Source of the DNA: a virus | Taxonomy: Duplodnaviria; Caudoviricetes | DNA: 51,938 bases | Virus record (IMG/VR): IMGVR_UViG_3300026320_000008 | Coordinates: 1-51,938 of that record | Direction: 5' to 3' (one strand) | Part shown: piece by piece, positions 31,479 through 38,644 of the stretch | Layout: each line of letters begins with the position of its first letter | Numbering within the stretch: position 1 is the first letter of the stretch | The notes under the pieces: generated by a model | The model's database searches: none | What the model saw: the letters and a program-made list of their open reading frames with translations, nothing else | Told to the model about the DNA's origin: nothing | Made by a program: the position numbers and the translations under genes

Positions 31479-31721
31479 TCAATGGCGAGGCGGTTGTCTG
31501 ATCCGATTGGCATGTCTACTTACCACTTTGGTAGGGACACGACTTAATGAACCAAATCTATGGAATCCAACATGATCCAATTCTTTCTTGTCGCCCTTAT
31601 GCACGAGTCCCTTTTTTAGAGCTTTTCGTCGTGCTTGGTTGCGGGCCTCCCTTCGGAGAACTTGGGCTCTCGTGTCCTCCCACTTGTTCTCCTTCGCGTA
31701 ATTGTGCGCTATTGTTAGCAC
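31479..31721 (-). CDS. HNH-like small basic protein (degenerate)
   Basis: NYAKE...RNQARR...GLVHKGDKKELDH...SRHANR resembles small podovirus HNH proteins. Confidence 0.6.
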   Translation of the reverse strand: MLTIAHNYAKENKWEDTRAQVLRREARNQARRKALKKGLVHKGDKKELDHVGFHRFGSLSRVPTKVVSRHANRIRQPPRH

Positions 31722-31908
31722 CTCCCTCCTTATAGTAAATAAATATAGTATAGGTATGATCGTCGCCGTTTAAGTCAACGACGATCTTTTCAACTTCTTC
31801 TGAAGGTTTAAGAACCTTCGTTTGATAGAGGAACGGCGCTATCAAGTCCGTCATGTTCCCCTGTGACATCGTCACGCGATGCCACTTTCTTTCTTTTCTT
31901 TTTTGCAT
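31597..31908 (-). CDS. Hypothetical protein
   Basis: ORF track; overlaps the downstream gene by ~120 nt. Confidence 0.45.
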   Translation of the reverse strand: MQKRKERKWHRVTMSQGNMTDLIAPFLYQTKVLKPSEEVEKIVVDLNGDDHTYTIFIYYKEGGANNSAQLREGEQVGGHESPSSPKGGPQPSTTKSSKKGTRA

Positions 31909-32445: not shown

Positions 32446-33312
32446 TCAACGTATGATTTCTCCAGCTTTATTAACTTCTGGGACATCTGGTATCCTCCTT
32501 ACAGTTGTGAGGTAGACTGGTCCGTCAGCATATATAAACGTGCGCAGATTAGGAAAGCAGCAGAACTTAAAAGGTTCGTAGCTTGCGCGCACATCAAGCT
32601 GGACATTTCCGGATGCTCCGTGCGTTCTTGTTCCGCACGTGCAATCAGGGGGAATGCTTCGTCCAACAAACTCTTTATATGCTGCAACTCGTGACTTAAT
32701 GTGCTCATGACGCACCTTATGTTCATATAGACAGATATGACCTAACTCTTTATGGATTGCTAATATGTAGCCTTTGTCTTTTACCAGTACCAGAGGGTCT
32801 GAAGCAGAAGCCACTGTGTAGCCGTCGAGCTGAGATAGAAAACCGAATCCATCACTTTGCTCGATAGTCTTTTGTTTGTACTTAAGAAACTGACGACCAG
32901 AACATGATTTGACATCCACCAAACAACCGTCAATAACAGCATCCCGGTGACCTTTAATGCCATCAAGTTCCAGTTCATCTTGCTCTCCTACAACATGATG
33001 ACCGGCAGCCCTAGCTAATTGAATAGCCAGGGCCTCGATCATGTCGCCGAATGCAAACTTAAACGTTGCCCAAGGGGGAAGGGGTTCAGCCTCGTTGGGT
33101 GTGTGGATAGAATGCCAGAGAGCGCGAGGGCATCGATCGCCCATGCCGGATAAACGTAAGGCAGGAGTTCTTTCTGTCCTTCCCAACGTCTTTGGCAAGC
33201 TCTGAGCAAGCTGTCCTGAAAGTCCTCGACAGAGTTCATCTGTGAACCAGCTGTCCTTTCTCTTGAGGAGGTCCTGAATATCAGGGACCAAGGTATAAAT
33301 TGATGTGTTCAA
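32446..33312 (-). CDS. PD-(D/E)xK exonuclease (Cas4/RecB-like)
   Basis: LRLSGMG.CPR.LW, GHRDAVIDGCLVDVKS, QLDGY; likely TTG start at 33312 overlapping the upstream TGA. Confidence 0.8.
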   Translation of the reverse strand: MNTSIYTLVPDIQDLLKRKDSWFTDELCRGLSGQLAQSLPKTLGRTERTPALRLSGMGDRCPRALWHSIHTPNEAEPLPPWATFKFAFGDMIEALAIQLARAAGHHVVGEQDELELDGIKGHRDAVIDGCLVDVKSCSGRQFLKYKQKTIEQSDGFGFLSQLDGYTVASASDPLVLVKDKGYILAIHKELGHICLYEHKVRHEHIKSRVAAYKEFVGRSIPPDCTCGTRTHGASGNVQLDVRASYEPFKFCCFPNLRTFIYADGPVYLTTVRRIPDVPEVNKAGEIIR

Positions 33313-33653
33313 TGTAATGTAGATACGGCATCTTTCAGACTGTTCCACATATGGATCATCAATAATGACCACATATAGGTTGCTGGTGGACCGAATGCAA
33401 CGACGAACTTCATCATGTCCCAGTATGTGAGACTCTTGTCGCCTAGCTTCTGCATTCCGGTCTTAGGTGCTGGTTTATTGCCGCTATCTTGTCCTTTCTT
33501 TTGAGCTTCCTGCCACTTCTTGAATTGCTTCTCAATCTTTCTGTGTATCTTCACAGGATCGATTTCGGCAGAGGTTGATGATTGTGGTCCTTGCCACGGC
33601 ATGATAATAAATGGTTGTTGCTGCTGTTGAGGGTATCCCCAAGGCGGCCACAT
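33309..33653 (-). CDS. Pro/Gln-rich protein with C-terminal hydrophobic segment
   Basis: AAAGGAG RBS; MWPPWGYPQQQQQP; FVVAFGPPATYMWSLLMIHMW. Confidence 0.7.
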   Translation of the reverse strand: MWPPWGYPQQQQQPFIIMPWQGPQSSTSAEIDPVKIHRKIEKQFKKWQEAQKKGQDSGNKPAPKTGMQKLGDKSLTYWDMMKFVVAFGPPATYMWSLLMIHMWNSLKDAVSTLH

Positions 33654-33699
33654 CTGATTCTCTCCTTTCGCAGAGATGTTCGAATTATTGTTTTTTGAA

Positions 33700-34800
33700 A
33701 TGTACTAAGTGGGGCTCTGCGTCTCCGCTTCACAGCCCCAATGGATTAAGGAGGCATCTTCCCGAACCACTTGTTTCGGTTGAAGTACATACTTCACCTA
33801 CTCTCCTGTGGTTAGAGGGACCTCAGCAGGGACAGTCCCTGAACCCTGTTCTCACTGGCATCCCAGTCAAGACGGTTTCTGAGGCATTCCACAAGTATGC
33901 AACAGGTTCCATAGGTAACCATCGTGGTCCCAACATGTGCTCAAAACTAAGCCTCTTGCACACCCTTTTCGGATACATACCTATAGTGCCTTACTGGCAA
34001 CGCCATCTGTCGATGGCCACCGGACTCGCAGGTCACACAGGCTCTTCACACCCATGCGTCACGATGTCACTCGCAACGTTATCAGGTCGGTAAACCCCAG
34101 TACCCCTGTTGGGGTCACGGACTCGAACCGTTATTACCTCCCTGGGGCCTACAAACTGCGTAACAATCTCCAGAAAGTCCTACTGCTTTTAGTGCTGTGG
34201 TAGACAGCCACAGACTGCAGGCCTTTACGGTATCTCCAATAGACTTCTCATGTTACGTCTCGCTTGACCTTACGTAGTATATTCGCCTACGGGAGACGCT
34301 AGTCTATTGCGTTTATCCTACTTGTCTCGAAAGCATTCTCCATCGGGTACGAACACCCGAATGTCTTCTCTTTTTGCATCACGAGGGGATCTGTTTCCCA
34401 CGGCAGGATTTGAACCTGCACTGAGTTGGTGTGCCCAGCCATCGGTCTTACAGGCAACTTGCTTTCGATCCGAGTCAAAGCTACGAACGCTAGCTCTTCG
34501 TACCTACCGGGCCTCCATTGAATTGTTTGGAACCATATTCACAGAGTATCTCCCGTCCGGCCGCTCCCTGACTGAGTACAGTTACACGACCACTGGCATA
34601 AGACCCGAGCCTCCGCGTCTTCTTGGTCTATTGGCGCGTACTTTTACCTGTAGTCCGTACAGGCCCAGCAACCGCTAGTGCTGGTTGTCCCACCTGAGCT
34701 ACAACATTTGGGTGCAGCTTCAAGTCGTAGGCAGGTCATCACTCCTGCGCCATGTGGACGTTGCGCTTCGGACCCTTTTTCCCCGCCCGCTTTTCACCAC
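33700..34800 (-). ncRNA. Candidate giant structured non-coding RNA
   Basis: No ORF of 60 aa or more on the operon strand across ~1.15 kb; more than 15 stems visible by eye, including nested multi-helix domains and two TTCRART T-arms; strand inferred from T-loop/GNRA orientation and flanking genes. Confidence 0.7.
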
Positions 34801-34830
34801 TCACCGATGATTCGTTCTACGCAAAGGGAC

Positions 34831-35190
34831 TTATGTATTTCTTTTTCGAGGAGGTTTACGTTTGGGAATTTCTTCCTCTTTAATTGCATACACCCCTTTA
34901 ATAAGCTTTTGTCTTTGCATGCCGCAAATATTGAGAAATCGTCCAACGGACAATAGAAAATCTTCATTAATCCAACGATCTACAGTATGTTTACGTTCAA
35001 GATCCATGTTGTACGTTTCCATTCGACCTTGTTTGCAACCTTCCTCTTTGTGAAGTTCAATAACACTTGCTGCATACTCAACCATATCAATCCATCCAGC
35101 TTGCGATTGCAATCTGAGGATATTGGTAACGAGTTCTTCCGCTGTTGGTGTTTTTGTCAACGTAACTAAAGCTTTCGTTGGAGCGTTCAT
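34831..35190 (-). CDS. Hypothetical protein
   Basis: GGAG RBS; 119 aa with a basic C-terminal tail. Confidence 0.65.
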   Translation of the reverse strand: MNAPTKALVTLTKTPTAEELVTNILRLQSQAGWIDMVEYAASVIELHKEEGCKQGRMETYNMDLERKHTVDRWINEDFLLSVGRFLNICGMQRQKLIKGVYAIKEEEIPKRKPPRKRNT

Positions 35191-35210
35191 TGGACTTCTC
35201 CAGGGGTTAT

Positions 35211-35243
35211 GAAAAAGAGTGGGGGCGTGCTGGGCGCCCCCAG
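35211..35243 (-). terminator. Intrinsic terminator
   Basis: TGGGGGCG/CGCCCCCA stem followed on the - strand by CTCTTTT. Confidence 0.65.
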
Positions 35244-35291
35244 TCTTACACCCTAGCTCATTTATAATTTAGAAGGCCACTTGCTAGGGAG

Positions 35292-35531
35292 TTACTTTGC
35301 AACGACCATCATCACATCAGTGGGCGCTGGCGTTGCAGTCGTTTCGAGAAGAGTAAAGATCTGCTCTTCCGGAAGACCTTCTGACTTCTTTGCAGACTTC
35401 TTGGCGAACTTCTCCGCTTCTGCCTTGTCGGAGAAGGCACGCGTATAACGGTAACCCGCGTCACCGCTATCAATTTCCTTGGGTTTGAATTCAGACATCA
35501 CAACATAAATCATTCTTTTGTTTCCTTCCAT
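35292..35531 (-). CDS. Hypothetical protein
   Basis: ORF track; probable start MIYVVM at 35513 (ATGA overlap with SSB stop). Confidence 0.6.
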   Translation of the reverse strand: MEGNKRMIYVVMSEFKPKEIDSGDAGYRYTRAFSDKAEAEKFAKKSAKKSEGLPEEQIFTLLETTATPAPTDVMMVVAK

Positions 35532-36013
35532 GGGATGAGATCTGGGAATCCAGATGCCATCTTTGTTTGCTTTGGATCTTCGTAGTCATCGATTTCAAAA
35601 TCGACTAAATCATGAATTTTAACACCGACCAACCTCATTGCTTTACCTGTCTGTTTTGAGATTGGAATAGTGAATGAACGTAATTCTACTTTGACTTCTA
35701 CATCGCTTCCGTTCCCTATCTTCGTGCCTGTGTAAACTGTGTTATCAGCATTGAGTACAGAGGGAGGAGCCATTGGCTGTTCCACTCCATCTCTTCCTTT
35801 AAATTTAATGGGACGAGAGATTGTAACCCAATACCCATCATCGTCTTTAGTGATGTGGTTCTGAATACCTTCCTTTTTCCAAGCTAATACTTTGGTGAGA
35901 GAGTCGTTATCCAGATTAAGATCTATAGTCCACTTAGCATATTTACCGGGGACAATAACATTGGCCCACTTCGATTTTCCTCTCAAGAACTCGATTTTAT
36001 TTGGATTCGACAT
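35510..36013 (-). CDS. Single-stranded DNA-binding protein (T7 gp2.5-like)
   Basis: GKSKWA...KWTIDL...P.V...KIGNGSDVEV...RLVGVKIHDLV and an acidic C-terminus. Confidence 0.75.
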   Translation of the reverse strand: MSNPNKIEFLRGKSKWANVIVPGKYAKWTIDLNLDNDSLTKVLAWKKEGIQNHITKDDDGYWVTISRPIKFKGRDGVEQPMAPPSVLNADNTVYTGTKIGNGSDVEVKVELRSFTIPISKQTGKAMRLVGVKIHDLVDFEIDDYEDPKQTKMASGFPDLIPWKETKE

Positions 36014-36170
36014 CGACTTCCTGAACACCCAGAACAACTACTGAATTAACATTGTCCTCTGGATACATCACCTTCCACTGTTCAATAGCTTCGTCTTCTG
36101 CGAAATTCTCATCAGGTGCCTTAATCTTAAACTTCTTACTTGTAGTAAATCCAAGTTCAACTTCAAACAT
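35997..36170 (-). CDS. 57-aa acidic hypothetical protein
   Basis: Read manually: GAGG RBS, MFEVELGFTTSKKFKIKAPDENFAEDEAIEQW. Confidence 0.55.
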   Translation of the reverse strand: MFEVELGFTTSKKFKIKAPDENFAEDEAIEQWKVMYPEDNVNSVVVLGVQEVDVESK

Positions 36171-36670: not shown

Positions 36671-38644
36671 TTAGTGCGTTACCTTCCAGTTCGTACCGAT
36701 GGTCCACGTCTTGGGATCATCGTGGTTCTTTCCGTAGGTGCCCTTCAATGGACACGCTAAGTTCAATTCTACTCCTACATTTTCTAATGCTTTACATTGC
36801 ACCTCCGCTATTTCTCGAGCATACCATATGTCTCGAGTATCCACTTCTGTCTGCCACTCATCATGGACTAGATTAACTAAACGCCATCCTTCGTAACCGT
36901 TGGCATTTAGGTAATCCATCCACTTGAGAGTGGCCATCTTCATTATCACAGCTTCTCCGTTTTGGAGATAGCCAGACATTGCAAGATGTTTTCTCTCGGA
37001 GAGAGAGTCTCCAGGTATTCGAACACGCCTACCGTCCAACCCTGTGAAGTAGCCTGCTTTTGCATCTTTAAGAGCTGTTTCTTCTTTAAGATGTAGCCAC
37101 CCTTGGTATTTAGACAGTAAACGATTAAGTGCCTCTTCGGTCTGTGATACTGAACATTCAAGAATCGAAGCCAGTTTCGCAATCCCCGCTCCGAGAACGA
37201 GCGCATATACAAAGCGTTTCGCAGCATCTCGGGTCTTACAGCTAGAACCAAGTACTCTTTTGTTGAGAGAATGTGTATCGGTTTCATCTTCCTTACGTCC
37301 TTCAACAAGAGACTTGGTGAACTCCGGATCCTTGATGTAGTGAGCAAGTATACGCATTTGTATACCATCTGCGTCCACACCAATCAAGAGTTTCTTTCGA
37401 GGAGCGATGAATAAGCCGCGCATATCTGCGCCTAAATATTTCTCCTTACCATTCAGATCATGGCTATTTGCAATGTTAGCCATGTTGGGTTTCTGATGGG
37501 ACATACGGTGAGTCCAAGTTCCAATGCTGAGAAACTTTCCACGGATCCGATCATCATAATCGTCGACGAGATCAAGCCACTCGGTAAGTGTACGTCGCCT
37601 GGACTCAACCGTAATCCTCCTTGCCAGTGTCTTTGCACTTTTTGGCGCTTGAGGAGGAAGAGTATTTAAATTAGTATCATTTATCTTCCAACCGTAAATA
37701 GATAGATGTGCTAAACGTTGTTCCCAATCGACAAGAGGGTCTCGATCTCTTCTTTTGGAGGCTTGCGCCACGTCAATATGAGTTTTAGTTCTGTCGGTAG
37801 GCTGCCACGCTGCAAGCCGTAGTACATCGATTCGTTGTTTATGTGAGTCCGGATTAAAAACTGTCCAAGCACATCTGCAAAAAGGACCTCCGTTGAACTC
37901 ACTGAGATCTCCATTCTCACACCATCTGAAGTCCTTACGGTGAAGTGTTCCATGTTTGGTGTACTCCGGTGTTATTTCTCGGATGAGTTGGAGTCTCGGC
38001 GGAAACTCTTCTTTAAGTTTATGATCGAGGTCATTAAGCGTATTAAGGACCCGGTCCAGAAGAACACGAGATCGAACACTATCGAAACCAAACCCAGTGT
38101 GACCAAGGCACCGACAAACATTAGCCATTCGTTGCTCAGTGCTAAGAGCGCGCCGCCAGTGTTTATTAGAGCCAGGGAGGAAACCTTTCCCATATACAAT
38201 AAGAATGCGCTCACAGATATCCACATCTCGTTCACAGTACTCCTCCATCTCCTGAGAATATTTACTAAAGTCTGCGAAGTCTATCTTCGGAAGACCGAAT
38301 TCTTCTCCGTAACTTTCAATCGAATGAGACTCTCTGGAGAAATCTATTAGCTGAGATATGATAAGAGTATCAATACATTTCTCCAGAGGAATTTCAAAAC
38401 CGAGGAGGGAAGAGAGAACAGGATTATCGTAACCGATACAATTATGGCCAATCCATAACCGAACACCTGCTGCAAATCGGAGAAAGCGTTCTTTCTCTTG
38501 TTCATCATCTGAGACCTTTCTGAAGATTTGTAAGGAGTCGTAGGATCCCTTTACATCGGACGATGACAACACCTTACAAACAATAAGCCAGATCTTTGTG
38601 GGGTTCTCCAACCCATTAGTTTCAATATCAAAGACAACCTTCAA
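36671..38644 (-). CDS. DNA polymerase, family A (T7-like) with 3'-5' exonuclease
   Basis: ExoI FDIET, ExoII GHN...YD, ExoIII YCERD; motif A GVDADGIQMR, motif B RDAAKRFVYALVLG, motif C VHDE. Confidence 0.95.
   Translation of the reverse strand: MKVVFDIETNGLENPTKIWLIVCKVLSSSDVKGSYDSLQIFRKVSDDEQEKERFLRFAAGVRLWIGHNCIGYDNPVLSSLLGFEIPLEKCIDTLIISQLIDFSRESHSIESYGEEFGLPKIDFADFSKYSQEMEEYCERDVDICERILIVYGKGFLPGSNKHWRRALSTEQRMANVCRCLGHTGFGFDSVRSRVLLDRVLNTLNDLDHKLKEEFPPRLQLIREITPEYTKHGTLHRKDFRWCENGDLSEFNGGPFCRCAWTVFNPDSHKQRIDVLRLAAWQPTDRTKTHIDVAQASKRRDRDPLVDWEQRLAHLSIYGWKINDTNLNTLPPQAPKSAKTLARRITVESRRRTLTEWLDLVDDYDDRIRGKFLSIGTWTHRMSHQKPNMANIANSHDLNGKEKYLGADMRGLFIAPRKKLLIGVDADGIQMRILAHYIKDPEFTKSLVEGRKEDETDTHSLNKRVLGSSCKTRDAAKRFVYALVLGAGIAKLASILECSVSQTEEALNRLLSKYQGWLHLKEETALKDAKAGYFTGLDGRRVRIPGDSLSERKHLAMSGYLQNGEAVIMKMATLKWMDYLNANGYEGWRLVNLVHDEWQTEVDTRDIWYAREIAEVQCKALENVGVELNLACPLKGTYGKNHDDPKTWTIGTNWKVTH

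What the first reader, a model, noticed from the sequence alone, without database searches (positions are those of the whole stretch)
33665..34830. Candidate giant ornate non-coding RNA (~1.1 kb) inside the replication operon
Seen: the largest gene-free gap in a genome where genes usually overlap, almost fully tiled with helices (+ coordinates). Nested domains: CAATAGACT/AGTCTATTG (34237-45/34301-09) enclosing CGTCTC/GAGACG and CGTAG/CTACG; a 3-way junction CCCCAG/CTGGGG (34095-34147); CCTCAG/CTGAGG (33821-33884) enclosing two hairpins. Simple hairpins: 34731-48, 34665-84, 34647-63, 34479-95, 34403-19, 34343-60, 34195-213, 34002-17, 33781-96, 33762-79. A 3'-terminal TGGGGCT/AGCCCCA stem carries a GCG-GAGA-CGC GNRA loop (33710-40). 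There is no complete tRNA, tmRNA tag, intron core or CRISPR repeat. Known: phages carry large RNAs such as GOLLD and ROOL that self-assemble into cages and whose function is unknown. Inference: this is a divergent member of such a class or a new one, here in a small lytic podovirus with no recognisable tRNA genes.
Basis: partly seen in the sequence, partly recalled or inferred. Interest (0 to 1): 0.92.

Follow-up and report, generated by a model that had tools for sequence, protein, structure and literature searches.

The report
Phage RNA island with tRNA-arm modules
The 1.2-kb gene-free stretch of this soil phage is a real non-coding RNA locus carrying two transfer-RNA "T-arm" look-alikes; related phages have one at the same place and some fold into very large RNAs, but this copy is not shown to be one giant RNA and is not a GOLLD or ROOL RNA.

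Summary
The gap (33654-34830) is real and is the largest non-coding stretch of this complete 52-kb soil phage. It lies on the minus strand between replication and recombination genes. It matches no Rfam family and has no tRNA or tmRNA gene. Its folding energy is no better than that of neighbouring coding DNA, so "tiled with helices" is not by itself above chance.

Other evidence supports a functional RNA:
- Strain variants from soil metagenomes give 6 compensatory pair changes against 0.37 expected.
- All five indels seen inside the gap (1, 1, 2, 3 and 5 nt) lie within gap ORFs, and four of them shift the frame.
- Two canonical tRNA T-arms sit on the sense strand.
- Two short blocks are shared, in order, with two other phages, one of them a covarying hairpin.

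All 83 distinct related phage contigs that hold both flanking genes have a 1.5-4.2-kb spacer at this site, and 65 carry 1-5 orphan T-arms (0 antisense). The best-sampled version has a core of about 700 nt with long-range helices and strong covariation. This window is not of that version.

Verdict: a new, fast-evolving phage RNA island built partly from tRNA-like modules. A single giant RNA is unproven here. The scan noted the same locus type earlier in other genomes.

The parts
33654..34830 (-). Non-coding RNA island between the 119-aa gene (34831-35190) and the 114-aa gene (33309-33653)
   Evidence: Only short unconserved ORFs, none with a Pfam match. GC 0.49-0.56 against 0.39-0.46 in the flanks. 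All 5 strain indels seen inside the gap (1, 1, 2, 3 and 5 nt) lie within gap ORFs. Largest gap in the genome.
34401..34485 (-). Partial tRNA-like cloverleaf: D-arm GCUUU/AAAGC, an anticodon-type stem with a 25-nt insert, and T-arm 1 (GCAGG-UUCAAAU-CCUGC, 34419-34403). There is no acceptor stem.
   Evidence: Rfam tRNA model 18.9 bits (gathering score 29), E 0.85. ARAGORN finds nothing. The T-arm plus the following hairpin resemble L124:3665-3697, 30 of 36 identical.
34095..34147 (-). Three-way junction: closing helix CCCCAG/CUGGGG, T-arm 2 (ACGG-UUCGAGU-CCGU, 34131-34117), and a capped hairpin ACCCC-AACA-GGGGU (34115-34102) followed by UA
   Evidence: Read from the sequence. Strain change 34117 A>G with 34131 T>C keeps the T-stem pair, and 34111 G>A gives a G-U pair only on the minus-strand RNA. 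The script scored it T-arm + capped hairpin + D-arm-like element; only the T-arm and the capped hairpin are read as reliable here.
34508..34555 (-). Hairpin domain (helices 34546-42/34517-13 and 34540-37/34523-20)
   Evidence: Three adjacent compensatory double changes (34520/34540, 34521/34539, 34522/34538), plus 34536 T>A which creates a 34524-34536 pair. These are seen in contigs of two runs from two studies. It is the only part of 34410-34698 whose MFE pairs are shared by the reference and variant haplotypes, 21 of 95 pairs.
34002..34017 (-). Hairpin GCCAUC-GACA-GAUGGC
   Evidence: Pair probability 0.99. Compensatory change 34006 T>G with 34013 A>C, from one contig at depth 4.3.
34195..34232 (-). 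Conserved block 1: CCGUAAAGGCCUG, then a hairpin CUGUGG-CUGUCUA-CCACAG (34213-34195)
   Evidence: Shared with L179 and L106. The stems differ but stay paired (UACGG/CCGUA, UCCUGG/CCAGGA) and the loop is conserved. An HMM built from L179 + L106 alone finds the window at E 0.0018, the only other hit in 1.31 Mb.
33746..33772 (-). Conserved 3' block GUGGUUCGGGAAGAUGCCUCCUUAA. It contains CCUCCUUA, the same sense as the 3' end of 16S rRNA (that resemblance is recalled, not tested).
   Evidence: Identical 18-mer in L179, and 2 mismatches in L106. An HMM from L179 + L106 alone finds the window at E 0.0049. Only those two IMG/VR contigs hold it.
33710..33740 (-). GC-rich hairpin UGGGGCU/AGCCCCA with an inner GCG-GAGA-CGC tetraloop, about 55 nt before the start of the 114-aa gene
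   Evidence: Pair probability 0.94. It is not followed by a U-run and the terminator scan does not call it. There is no comparative support.
34237..34309 (-).
   Evidence: The helices exist. The partition function prefers a competing fold at p 0.57. No variant listed falls here.
35510..36037 (-). Conserved 175-aa gene that marks the upstream edge of the island in the clade. It has no Pfam or PHROG match, and 'SSB-like' is only a label by position.
32446..33372 (-). Cas4-type exonuclease gene that marks the downstream edge of the island in the clade
   Evidence: PHROG 1990, E 3e-17. 1630 homologues.

Best explanation
The gap is a non-coding, structured stretch of the minus-strand replication/recombination transcript. 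It is one copy of a fast-evolving 'RNA island' that a large clade of soil podophages keeps between a conserved 160-175-aa gene and a Cas4-type exonuclease gene. The island is assembled from lineage-specific helices plus tRNA-derived modules. Here those modules are two orphan T-arms, one inside a partial cloverleaf without an acceptor stem, the other in a three-way junction with a capped acceptor-like hairpin.

Shown: the stretch is non-coding. At least five local helices are maintained by compensating changes. The strand is the minus strand. The locus is syntenic across the clade. T-arms are confined to the sense strand of the island. Relatives of one version fold into an RNA of about 700 nt or more.

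Inferred (about 40% likely): the RNA works in trans as a tRNA-shape mimic, and its T-arm or 'elbow' modules engage host factors that read that shape. Such factors are RNase P or Z, T-loop modification enzymes, or tRNA-targeting defence nucleases. The result would be either that stable RNA pieces are cut out of the operon transcript or that those factors are soaked up. The rapid turnover of sequence and of module number (0-5) fits an interface in conflict with the host.
For: Non-coding: no Pfam hit for 5 of 5 gap ORFs. All five indels seen inside the gap (1, 1, 2, 3 and 5 nt) lie within gap ORFs, and four shift the frame. The one indel in the flanking 114-aa gene totals 9 nt, which keeps the frame.

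Structure under selection: 6 compensatory double changes among 40 listed strain substitutions, against 0.37 expected and at most 3 in 5000 permutations. Three of them lie side by side in one helix and are seen in two runs of two studies.

Strand: the minus-strand fold is 48 kcal/mol more stable and has z -2.8 against -0.9. 34111 G>A keeps a pair only as G-U on the minus-strand RNA.

Clade: all 83 distinct regions with both flanking genes have a spacer of 1462-4168 nt, and 65 of 83 hold 1-5 T-arms. None is antisense and only 1 lies outside the spacer. There are 154 strict T-arms on the sense strand and 0 on the antisense strand in 1.26 Mb. ARAGORN finds no tRNA in those spacers, and 1 odd call elsewhere in 99 loci. 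Acceptor-type closure is not enriched: 16 against 15.2.

Large RNA in relatives: in a 9-sequence alignment, 94.3% of cells are paired against 84.5% when shuffled. 46 pairs changed on both sides against 23.9 +/- 2.7 (0 of 500 shuffles), and only 5-15 when the partners are slid. Helices spanning 300-370 alignment columns covary, and an invariant 2-bp helix spans about 725 columns.

Homology of this copy: two co-linear blocks shared with L179 and L106.
Against: - Local folding z-scores in the gap are the same as in coding flanks.
- 12 of the 40 strain substitutions break predicted pairs, which is what chance gives (12.6).
- Helices 33963-58/33940-35, 34223-15/34154-46 and 34621-17/34604-00 are high-probability predictions that the variants disrupt.
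- Only 21 of 95 MFE pairs in 34410-34698 are shared by the two haplotypes.
- No promoter or terminator brackets the gap, so a discrete RNA is not indicated.
- This copy has none of the 14 conserved words specific to the well-supported ~700-nt family, and that family's profile does not find it.
- Its two closest relatives, L179 and L106, have no canonical T-arm, so T-arms are not essential to this version.
- Nothing here tests function, and no tRNA- or RNA-processing gene was found in the 28 minus-strand ORFs scanned.
Confidence: 0.6

Rival explanations
1. One giant ornate RNA of about 1.1 kb, a new class in the manner of GOLLD or ROOL, which folds as a single unit and perhaps self-assembles.
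For: Relatives of another version have long-range covarying helices that enclose 300-370 alignment columns. In this window a 7-bp helix 34561-55/34025-19 spanning 542 nt has one compensatory change, 34559/34021. Terminal helices 34826-16/33674-65 are predicted at p 0.7-0.8.
Against: Two neighbours in that 542-nt helix are broken in the same variants, and the two sides come from different contigs. The terminal helix would pair the RNA with the ribosome-binding region of the next gene and has no comparative support. z-scores are ordinary. There are no transcript ends.
Confidence: 0.25
2. A string of several small independent RNAs (tRNA look-alikes and hairpin RNAs) cut from the operon transcript, not one fold.
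For: All well-supported elements are local: 48-nt, 16-nt, 53-nt and 85-nt modules. The number of T-arm modules varies from 0 to 5 between relatives. Earlier follow-ups of this scan read two other phage gaps that way (not checked here).
Against: The related ~700-nt version clearly has domain-closing helices. The T-arms lack acceptor stems that would define RNase P or Z products.
Confidence: 0.3
3. Decaying remains of a phage tRNA gene cluster, or plain spacer or regulatory DNA (origin, promoters) with no RNA-level function.
For: Sequence turns over so fast that the gap aligns with none of 179 related loci beyond two short blocks. Folding energy is ordinary. The position inside a replication module would suit an origin.
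Against: T-arms remain perfect while everything around them changes, and they are strictly strand-specific, 154 to 0. There are compensatory changes within the species. A spacer of 1.5 kb or more is kept in 83 of 83 distinct regions of an otherwise gap-free genome type. More distant relatives lack it altogether, so it is a gained element, not left-over space.
Confidence: 0.1
4. A divergent member of GOLLD, ROOL, OLE, HEARO, a group I or II intron, RNase P RNA or tmRNA.
For: Like GOLLD and ROOL, it is a large phage non-coding locus associated with tRNA-type sequence. [quoted passage not shown]
Against: No match to any Rfam 15 model at gathering score or at E<=10 in 33500-35000, apart from a weak tRNA hit. 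None in 6 related loci, nor at E<=10 in 4 of them. ARAGORN finds no tmRNA.
Confidence: 0.02
5. An unrecognised protein-coding gene: the plus-strand ORFs of 160 and 123 aa, or the minus-strand ORFs of 59 and 51 aa.
For: The ORFs exist.
Against: No Pfam match for the four of these ORFs that were scanned (the 51-aa ORF was not). A 2-nt deletion at 33924 hits both the 160-aa and the 51-aa ORF. A 1-nt deletion at 34592 and a 5-nt insertion at 34496-98 hit the 123-aa ORF. The 59-aa ORF contains T-arm 1. Six-frame comparison of six syntenic gaps shows no protein-level similarity.
Confidence: 0.02

Closest known systems
GOLLD and ROOL RNAs (large ornate phage and prophage RNAs; Rfam families)
   Same: A large non-coding locus in a phage. 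Function unknown. [quoted passage not shown] The related ~700-nt version is of comparable size.
   Different: No sequence or structure match to either model. The tRNA-type pieces here are orphan T-arms inside the fold, not complete tRNA genes. Sequence turnover is far faster. Self-assembly is untested.
The ~700-nt 'type A' RNA at the same locus in related soil phages
   Same: Same genomic slot, same strand, GC-rich, three T-arms, no Rfam match.
   Different: This window has none of its 14 specific conserved words, and its profile HMM, which reaches 42-43 of 180 sequences, does not find the window at E<=10. Only the arrangement T-arm + capped hairpin + ACUGG looks alike. That was seen by eye and not tested statistically.
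Non-decoding tRNA look-alikes of phages (T4 species 1 and 2 RNAs, T5 'tRNA-like stable RNA') and bacterial or phage YrlA-type Y RNAs (Chen et al. 2014, PMC4201824; only the listing and the start of the abstract were seen)
   Same: A tRNA T-arm mimic in a phage RNA that cannot decode.
   Different: Those are discrete RNAs of about 100-150 nt, mostly with an acceptor stem, and Y RNAs come with a Ro60 gene. Here the T-arms have no acceptor closure, lie in a locus of 1 kb or more, and no Ro60 (TROVE) domain was found among the 28 minus-strand ORFs scanned. The T4 and T5 comparison is recalled, not tested.
Circularly permuted tRNA and tmRNA genes (red-alga permuted tRNA genes; two-piece tmRNA of alphaproteobacteria). 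Recalled, not looked up.
   Same: The order T-arm, then acceptor stem, then D-arm. It is seen in 25 of 155 T-arm modules of the clade against 4.9 expected, and partly in T-arm 2 of this window.
   Different: Here the acceptor-like stem is capped by a 3-9-nt loop with no CCA. There is no anticodon or tag reading frame. ARAGORN's permuted-tmRNA search finds nothing at default settings.

Membership tests
GOLLD RNA (Rfam) | Match to the Rfam covariance model (conserved 3' domain) | tested here: not met
   0 matches at gathering score in the window. None at E<=10 in 33500-35000.
ROOL RNA (Rfam) | Match to the Rfam covariance model (pseudoknotted core) | tested here: not met
   as above. None in related loci either.
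GOLLD/ROOL | Self-assembly into RNA-only multimers | not testable with these tools
   Needs native gels, mass photometry or cryo-EM.
tRNA | Complete cloverleaf with an acceptor stem and a 7-nt anticodon loop | tested here: not met
   ARAGORN finds 0. Rfam tRNA 18.9 bits against a gathering score of 29, with a 25-nt insert in the anticodon loop and a 2-bp acceptor. Across the clade, acceptor closure is at chance level.
tmRNA (standard or permuted) | tRNA-like domain with an alanine-type acceptor plus a tag reading frame | tested here: not met
   ARAGORN finds 0. No Rfam match. Only noise at relaxed thresholds in relatives.
Group I/II introns, RNase P RNA, OLE, HEARO, T-large and all other Rfam 15 families | Match to the family model | tested here: not met
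   Window. Clade: 83 of 83 distinct complete regions are 1462-4168 nt.
   Two in the window. 65 of 83 regions have at least one, and none is antisense.
'Type A' ~700-nt RNA of relatives | Conserved words (for example GGUCUCAUUAGC and GUAAUGUAGUAGGA) and a profile-HMM match | tested here: not met
   No hit at E<=10 after 6 profile rounds. Of 15 words tried, the 14 family-specific ones gave either no match or only scattered matches of 1-2 mismatches that are not in the family's order. The 15th (GGAAUAAAGG-like) is weak. A covariance-model test was not run.
'Type W' (window + L179 + L106) | Block 1 (CCGUAAAGGYCYG plus a hairpin with loop CUGUCUA) and the 3' block (GGGAANANGCCUCCUUAA), in that order | tested here: met
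   Alignment. HMMs built without the window find it at E 0.0018 and 0.0049, the only other hits in 1.31 Mb.
Y RNA (YrlA type) | Rfam match and a neighbouring Ro60 (TROVE) gene | tested here: not met
   No Rfam match. No TROVE domain in the 28 minus-strand ORFs scanned. The plus-strand structural genes were not scanned.

The most novel reading that the evidence does not exclude
This gap and its counterparts in hundreds of soil podophage contigs form one new superfamily of large modular phage RNAs. They would be assembled from circularly permuted, acceptor-capped tRNA-like units (T-arm, capped acceptor stem, D-arm), giving scaffolds with several tRNA 'elbows'. These scaffolds would either sponge tRNA-reading host defence or processing factors, or dock on one another into higher-order RNA particles as GOLLD and ROOL do.
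Probability: 0.2. Interest if true: 0.9.

Novelty: new variant of a known kind. Interest (0 to 1): 0.68.

Why it matters
Large structured phage RNAs such as GOLLD and ROOL are few, and their function is unknown. This locus type is abundant in soil viromes: the exonuclease next to it has 1630 homologues in the search. It is absent from Rfam 15 and from the papers found in four full-text searches.

It offers a natural series of 0-5 embedded T-arms, including permuted tRNA-like cores, at one fixed genomic slot. That makes a concrete question testable: do phages use the tRNA shape as a portable RNA module, and against or for which host factor? For this window the practical result is an annotation. 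The 1.2 kb is an RNA locus on the minus strand, not missing genes.

Tried and rejected
- Nucleotide search of the gap against 50,697 phage records found no match. blastn and nhmmer against 19, then 99, then 179 related loci gave only short matches.
- Relaxed ARAGORN settings (introns, mitochondrial mode, 70-80% thresholds) gave many mutually inconsistent calls on both strands. I treated them as noise.
- Six-frame comparison of six syntenic gaps found no protein-level similarity. The one similar pair matched in all frames.
- The motif GUAAAGG as a universal core word was rejected. It is also common in coding DNA, 182 sense against 87 antisense hits.
- The CCUCCUUA-type word is not strand-biased in the clade as a whole, 53 against 35.
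- A genome-contig scan with the 18-nt 3' block returned 120 or more unrelated bacterial hits, mostly ribosome-binding sites on the other strand.
- Sequencing runs: 11 soil metagenome DNA runs from 8 studies hold the stretch or part of it. No RNA holder is listed, so expression could not be examined.
- A covariance model of the 'T-arm + capped hairpin + D-arm' module was planned but not built, because MAFFT could not put the variable hairpin into consistent columns. No covariance-model test of the window against the type A RNA was run.
- Structure, complex and atlas tools were not used, because no protein question arose.
- Supplementary files of papers were closed. The supplementary tables of 10.1101/2024.12.08.627333 (GOLLD and ROOL variants) could bear on the membership claim and were not seen.
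Full report
**What is there.** The window is a complete 51,938-bp virus record. From about 30.1 kb onward the genes run on the minus strand. Around the finding they are:
- a family-A DNA polymerase (36671-38644);
- a conserved 175-aa protein with no family match (35510-36037);
- ORFs of 79 and 119 aa;
- the gap (33654-34830);
- a 114-aa ORF;
- a Cas4-type exonuclease (32446-33372);
- a T7-type endonuclease I.

Further upstream lie a primase-helicase, a UDG-like protein, an AAA ATPase and a DUF7192 protein. No RNA-processing or tRNA-related enzyme was found among the 28 minus-strand ORFs scanned. The nearest cultured phages are marine Roseobacter podophages, with a polymerase only 36% identical.

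**Checking the observation.** The gap is the largest in the genome. It is GC-richer than its flanks, 0.49-0.56 against 0.39-0.46. ARAGORN finds no tRNA or tmRNA. Rfam 15 gives nothing at gathering score in the whole window. At E<=10 the only match in 33500-35000 is a sub-threshold tRNA hit at 34401-34485 on the minus strand: 18.9 bits against a gathering score of 29, with a 25-nt insert where the anticodon loop should be.

The thermodynamic argument does not hold up. The minus-strand fold (-403 kcal/mol, z -2.8) beats the plus-strand fold (-355, z -0.9). But in 200-nt windows the gap's mean z on the minus strand (-1.33) is no lower than that of the flanking coding DNA (-1.44). Helix density as such is therefore not above background. 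No sigma-70-like promoter or intrinsic terminator brackets the gap, so it is most simply part of the operon transcript.

**Evidence within the species.** Eleven soil metagenome DNA runs from eight studies hold the stretch or part of it. Contigs of four of them were laid on the window at 80% likeness or better, and they give strain variants.

Five indels were seen inside the gap, of 1, 1, 2, 3 and 5 nt. Every one lies within a gap ORF and four of them shift the frame. The one indel in the flanking 114-aa gene totals 9 nt, which keeps the frame. That argues against coding, as do the empty Pfam scans of five gap ORFs.

Forty substitutions were listed; 42 more were not shown. Against pairs of probability 0.4 or more in the minus-strand partition function, they give six compensatory double changes, where permutation gives 0.37 on average and never more than 3 in 5000 trials. 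The six are:
- 34520/34540, 34521/34539 and 34522/34538, side by side in one helix and seen in two runs of two studies; 34536 T>A adds a further pair to that helix;
- 34006/34013 in hairpin 34002-17;
- 34117/34131 in the stem of T-arm 2;
- 34021/34559 in a predicted 542-nt-range helix.

In addition, 34111 G>A keeps its pair only as G-U on the minus-strand RNA.

Against this, 12 substitutions break predicted pairs, exactly the chance level (12.6). Three high-probability helices are disrupted. The long-range helix has two broken neighbours, and its two sides come from different contigs. Only 21 of 95 MFE pairs in 34410-34698 are shared by the two haplotypes, all in the 34555-34508 hairpin domain or in short local hairpins. 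So a handful of local helices are under selection and much of the predicted fold is not supported. Two caveats apply. Two of the doubles rest on one contig at depth 4.3. The permutation also treats substitutions as independent.

**The locus in related phages.** The search for relatives used the polymerase and an alignment of exonuclease homologues. It brought in 179 loci from IMG/VR and JGI metagenomes. Their exonucleases are 49-62% identical to this one.

None of the 179 aligns with the gap beyond short words. Yet all 83 distinct regions that contain both the 160-175-aa gene and the exonuclease have a spacer of 1462-4168 nt between them, median 2207. More distant relatives have none: in L014 (polymerase 43% identical) and in Roseobacter phage CRP-4 (36%) the two genes nearly or fully abut. 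The island is therefore a gained feature of this soil clade.

Its hallmark is the canonical tRNA T-arm, NNNGG-UUCRANN-CCNNN:
- 154 strict copies on the sense strand against 0 on the antisense strand in 1.26 Mb;
- 1-5 copies in 65 of the 83 regions, and only one copy outside a spacer;
- ARAGORN at default settings finds no tRNA in any spacer;
- a 7-bp acceptor-type closure is no commoner than in shuffled flanks, 16 against 15.2 of 160 modules.

These are orphan T-arms, not tRNA genes.

**A large RNA in one version of the island.** Nine distinct spacers align over about 700 nt (L003, L005, L060, L065, L096, L153, L158, L174, L178). RNAalifold predicts 117 pairs, 45 of them with compensatory changes. 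They include covarying helices that span 300-370 alignment columns and an invariant 2-bp helix that spans about 725.

Counted independently, 94.3% of cells are paired against 84.5% in shuffles. 46 pairs change on both sides against 23.9 +/- 2.7 (0 of 500 shuffles), and only 5-15 do so when the partners are slid by 1-3 columns. A profile HMM iterated from this alignment reaches 42-43 of the 180 sequences, co-linearly over about 720 positions. No Rfam family matches these loci. So at least this 'type A' version is a bona fide large structured RNA with three embedded T-arms.

**Where this window stands.** It is not type A. The profile does not find it at E<=10. The family's conserved words are either absent or occur only as scattered 1-2-mismatch matches out of order.

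It does share two short blocks, in the same order and on the same strand, with two IMG/VR contigs, L179 and L106. Block 1 is CCGUAAAGGYCYG followed by a hairpin whose loop CUGUCUA is conserved while the stem covaries: CUGUGG/CCACAG here, UACGG/CCGUA and UCCUGG/CCAGGA there. The 3' block is GUGGUWYGGGAANANGCCUCCUUAA. HMMs built from L179 and L106 alone find the window at E 0.0018 and 0.0049, and nothing else in 1.31 Mb. Pattern scans of IMG/VR return only those two contigs. L179 and L106 carry no canonical T-arm, so the T-arms of this window look like added modules on a lineage-specific backbone.

**The modules.** T-arm 1 (34419-34403) sits in a partial cloverleaf with a D-arm and a swollen anticodon-type arm but no acceptor stem. 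A hairpin follows it, and the combination recurs in L124.

T-arm 2 (34131-34117) lies in a three-way junction closed by CCCCAG/CUGGGG. A capped hairpin follows it 1-2 nt downstream, and then UA.

Across the clade, 25 of 155 distinct T-arm modules show a stricter form of this layout, against 4.9 expected. In it the T-arm is followed directly by a freely covarying capped hairpin. Next comes U-G and a D-arm look-alike, UGGCGAAAYnGGYAAACGC. That is the order of a circularly permuted tRNA with its acceptor stem capped. The comparison with permuted tRNA and tmRNA genes is recalled, not tested. The window has the first half of this layout but not the D-arm word.

**Mechanism.** What is shown is an RNA-level constraint on the minus strand, the presence of tRNA-shape modules, and conservation of the locus with rapid turnover of its content.

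What is inferred is that the RNA acts in trans as a tRNA-shape mimic. Its T-arm or elbow modules would be read by host enzymes or defence nucleases that recognise that shape, which would either excise stable pieces from the transcript or be titrated. I put this at about 0.4.

The rivals are a single self-folding giant RNA in the GOLLD/ROOL manner (0.25 for this window), a string of small RNAs (0.3), and non-functional or DNA-level spacer (0.1). These readings overlap: mimicry could hold for one RNA or for several.

The GOLLD/ROOL comparison is one of kind, not of membership. [quoted passage not shown]

**Novelty.** Four full-text searches and Rfam 15 give no description of this locus. Earlier notes of this scan describe the same type in other genomes:
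- a followed-up 2.1-kb 'giant structured RNA locus' with tRNA-arm look-alikes in a soil phage;
- two first-reader notes on a 1.5-kb gap next to the SSB gene with five T-arm modules.

I did not check those records themselves, and my own comparison of the clade agrees with them. I rate it a new variant of a known kind (large structured phage RNAs tied to tRNA sequence). For this window the evidence is solid for 'functional non-coding RNA locus' and weak for 'one giant ornate RNA'.

Noticed in passing
L073:3345-3398, L078:3035-3088, L084:3671-3723, L103:1291-1341, L124:3664-3717, L134:1795-1850 (alignment A5): A sharply conserved composite module in related phages: a T-arm, then directly a capped hairpin whose sequence covaries freely, then UGGCGAAAYnGGYAAACGC (a D-arm look-alike). 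This is the order of a circularly permuted, acceptor-capped tRNA. It occurs in 25 of 155 modules against 4.9 expected.
   Followed up: partly
window 33746-33763 (minus strand); L179:4154-4171; L106:4074-4091: The conserved 3' word GGGAAGAUGCCUCCUUAA contains CCUCCUUA, the same sense as the 3' tail of 16S rRNA. It could pair with the AAGGAG ribosome-binding site of the 114-aa gene 85 nt downstream, or with the GGGGC of the next hairpin. On the plus strand it reads as a strong Shine-Dalgarno word with no start codon after it.
   Followed up: partly
window 31700-31899, 36800-36999 and 35200-35399: The strongest local folding z-scores of the 31-38 kb region lie in coding DNA, not in the gap: -7.2 (minus strand) at 31700, -6.7 (minus) and -5.0 (plus) at 36800 inside the polymerase gene, and -4.6 (plus strand) at 35200, where a terminator-like hairpin sits at 35242-35220.
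   Followed up: no
window 33587-33592: One soil strain carries a 9-nt insertion (6 + 2 + 1) in the Gln-rich N-terminus of the 114-aa gene. It is an in-frame length polymorphism, in contrast to the indels inside the gap.
   Followed up: no
window 34831-35190 and 33309-33653: The 119-aa and 114-aa genes that flank the island have no homologue (E<=1e-3) in the 99 related loci held at that point and no Pfam or PHROG family. The small genes around the island turn over as fast as the RNA does.
   Followed up: partly
L303 (Roseobacter phage CRP-4, MK613346.1 8072-9427) and L014:6596-8133: More distant relatives have the 164-166-aa gene next to the exonuclease-type gene. The two abut directly in CRP-4, and in L014 only a 57-aa ORF lies between them. 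The RNA island is therefore an insertion specific to the soil clade.
   Followed up: yes
L054:5916-6009: ARAGORN's only call in 99 loci is an odd 94-nt tRNA-Phe(AAA), outside the island.
   Followed up: no
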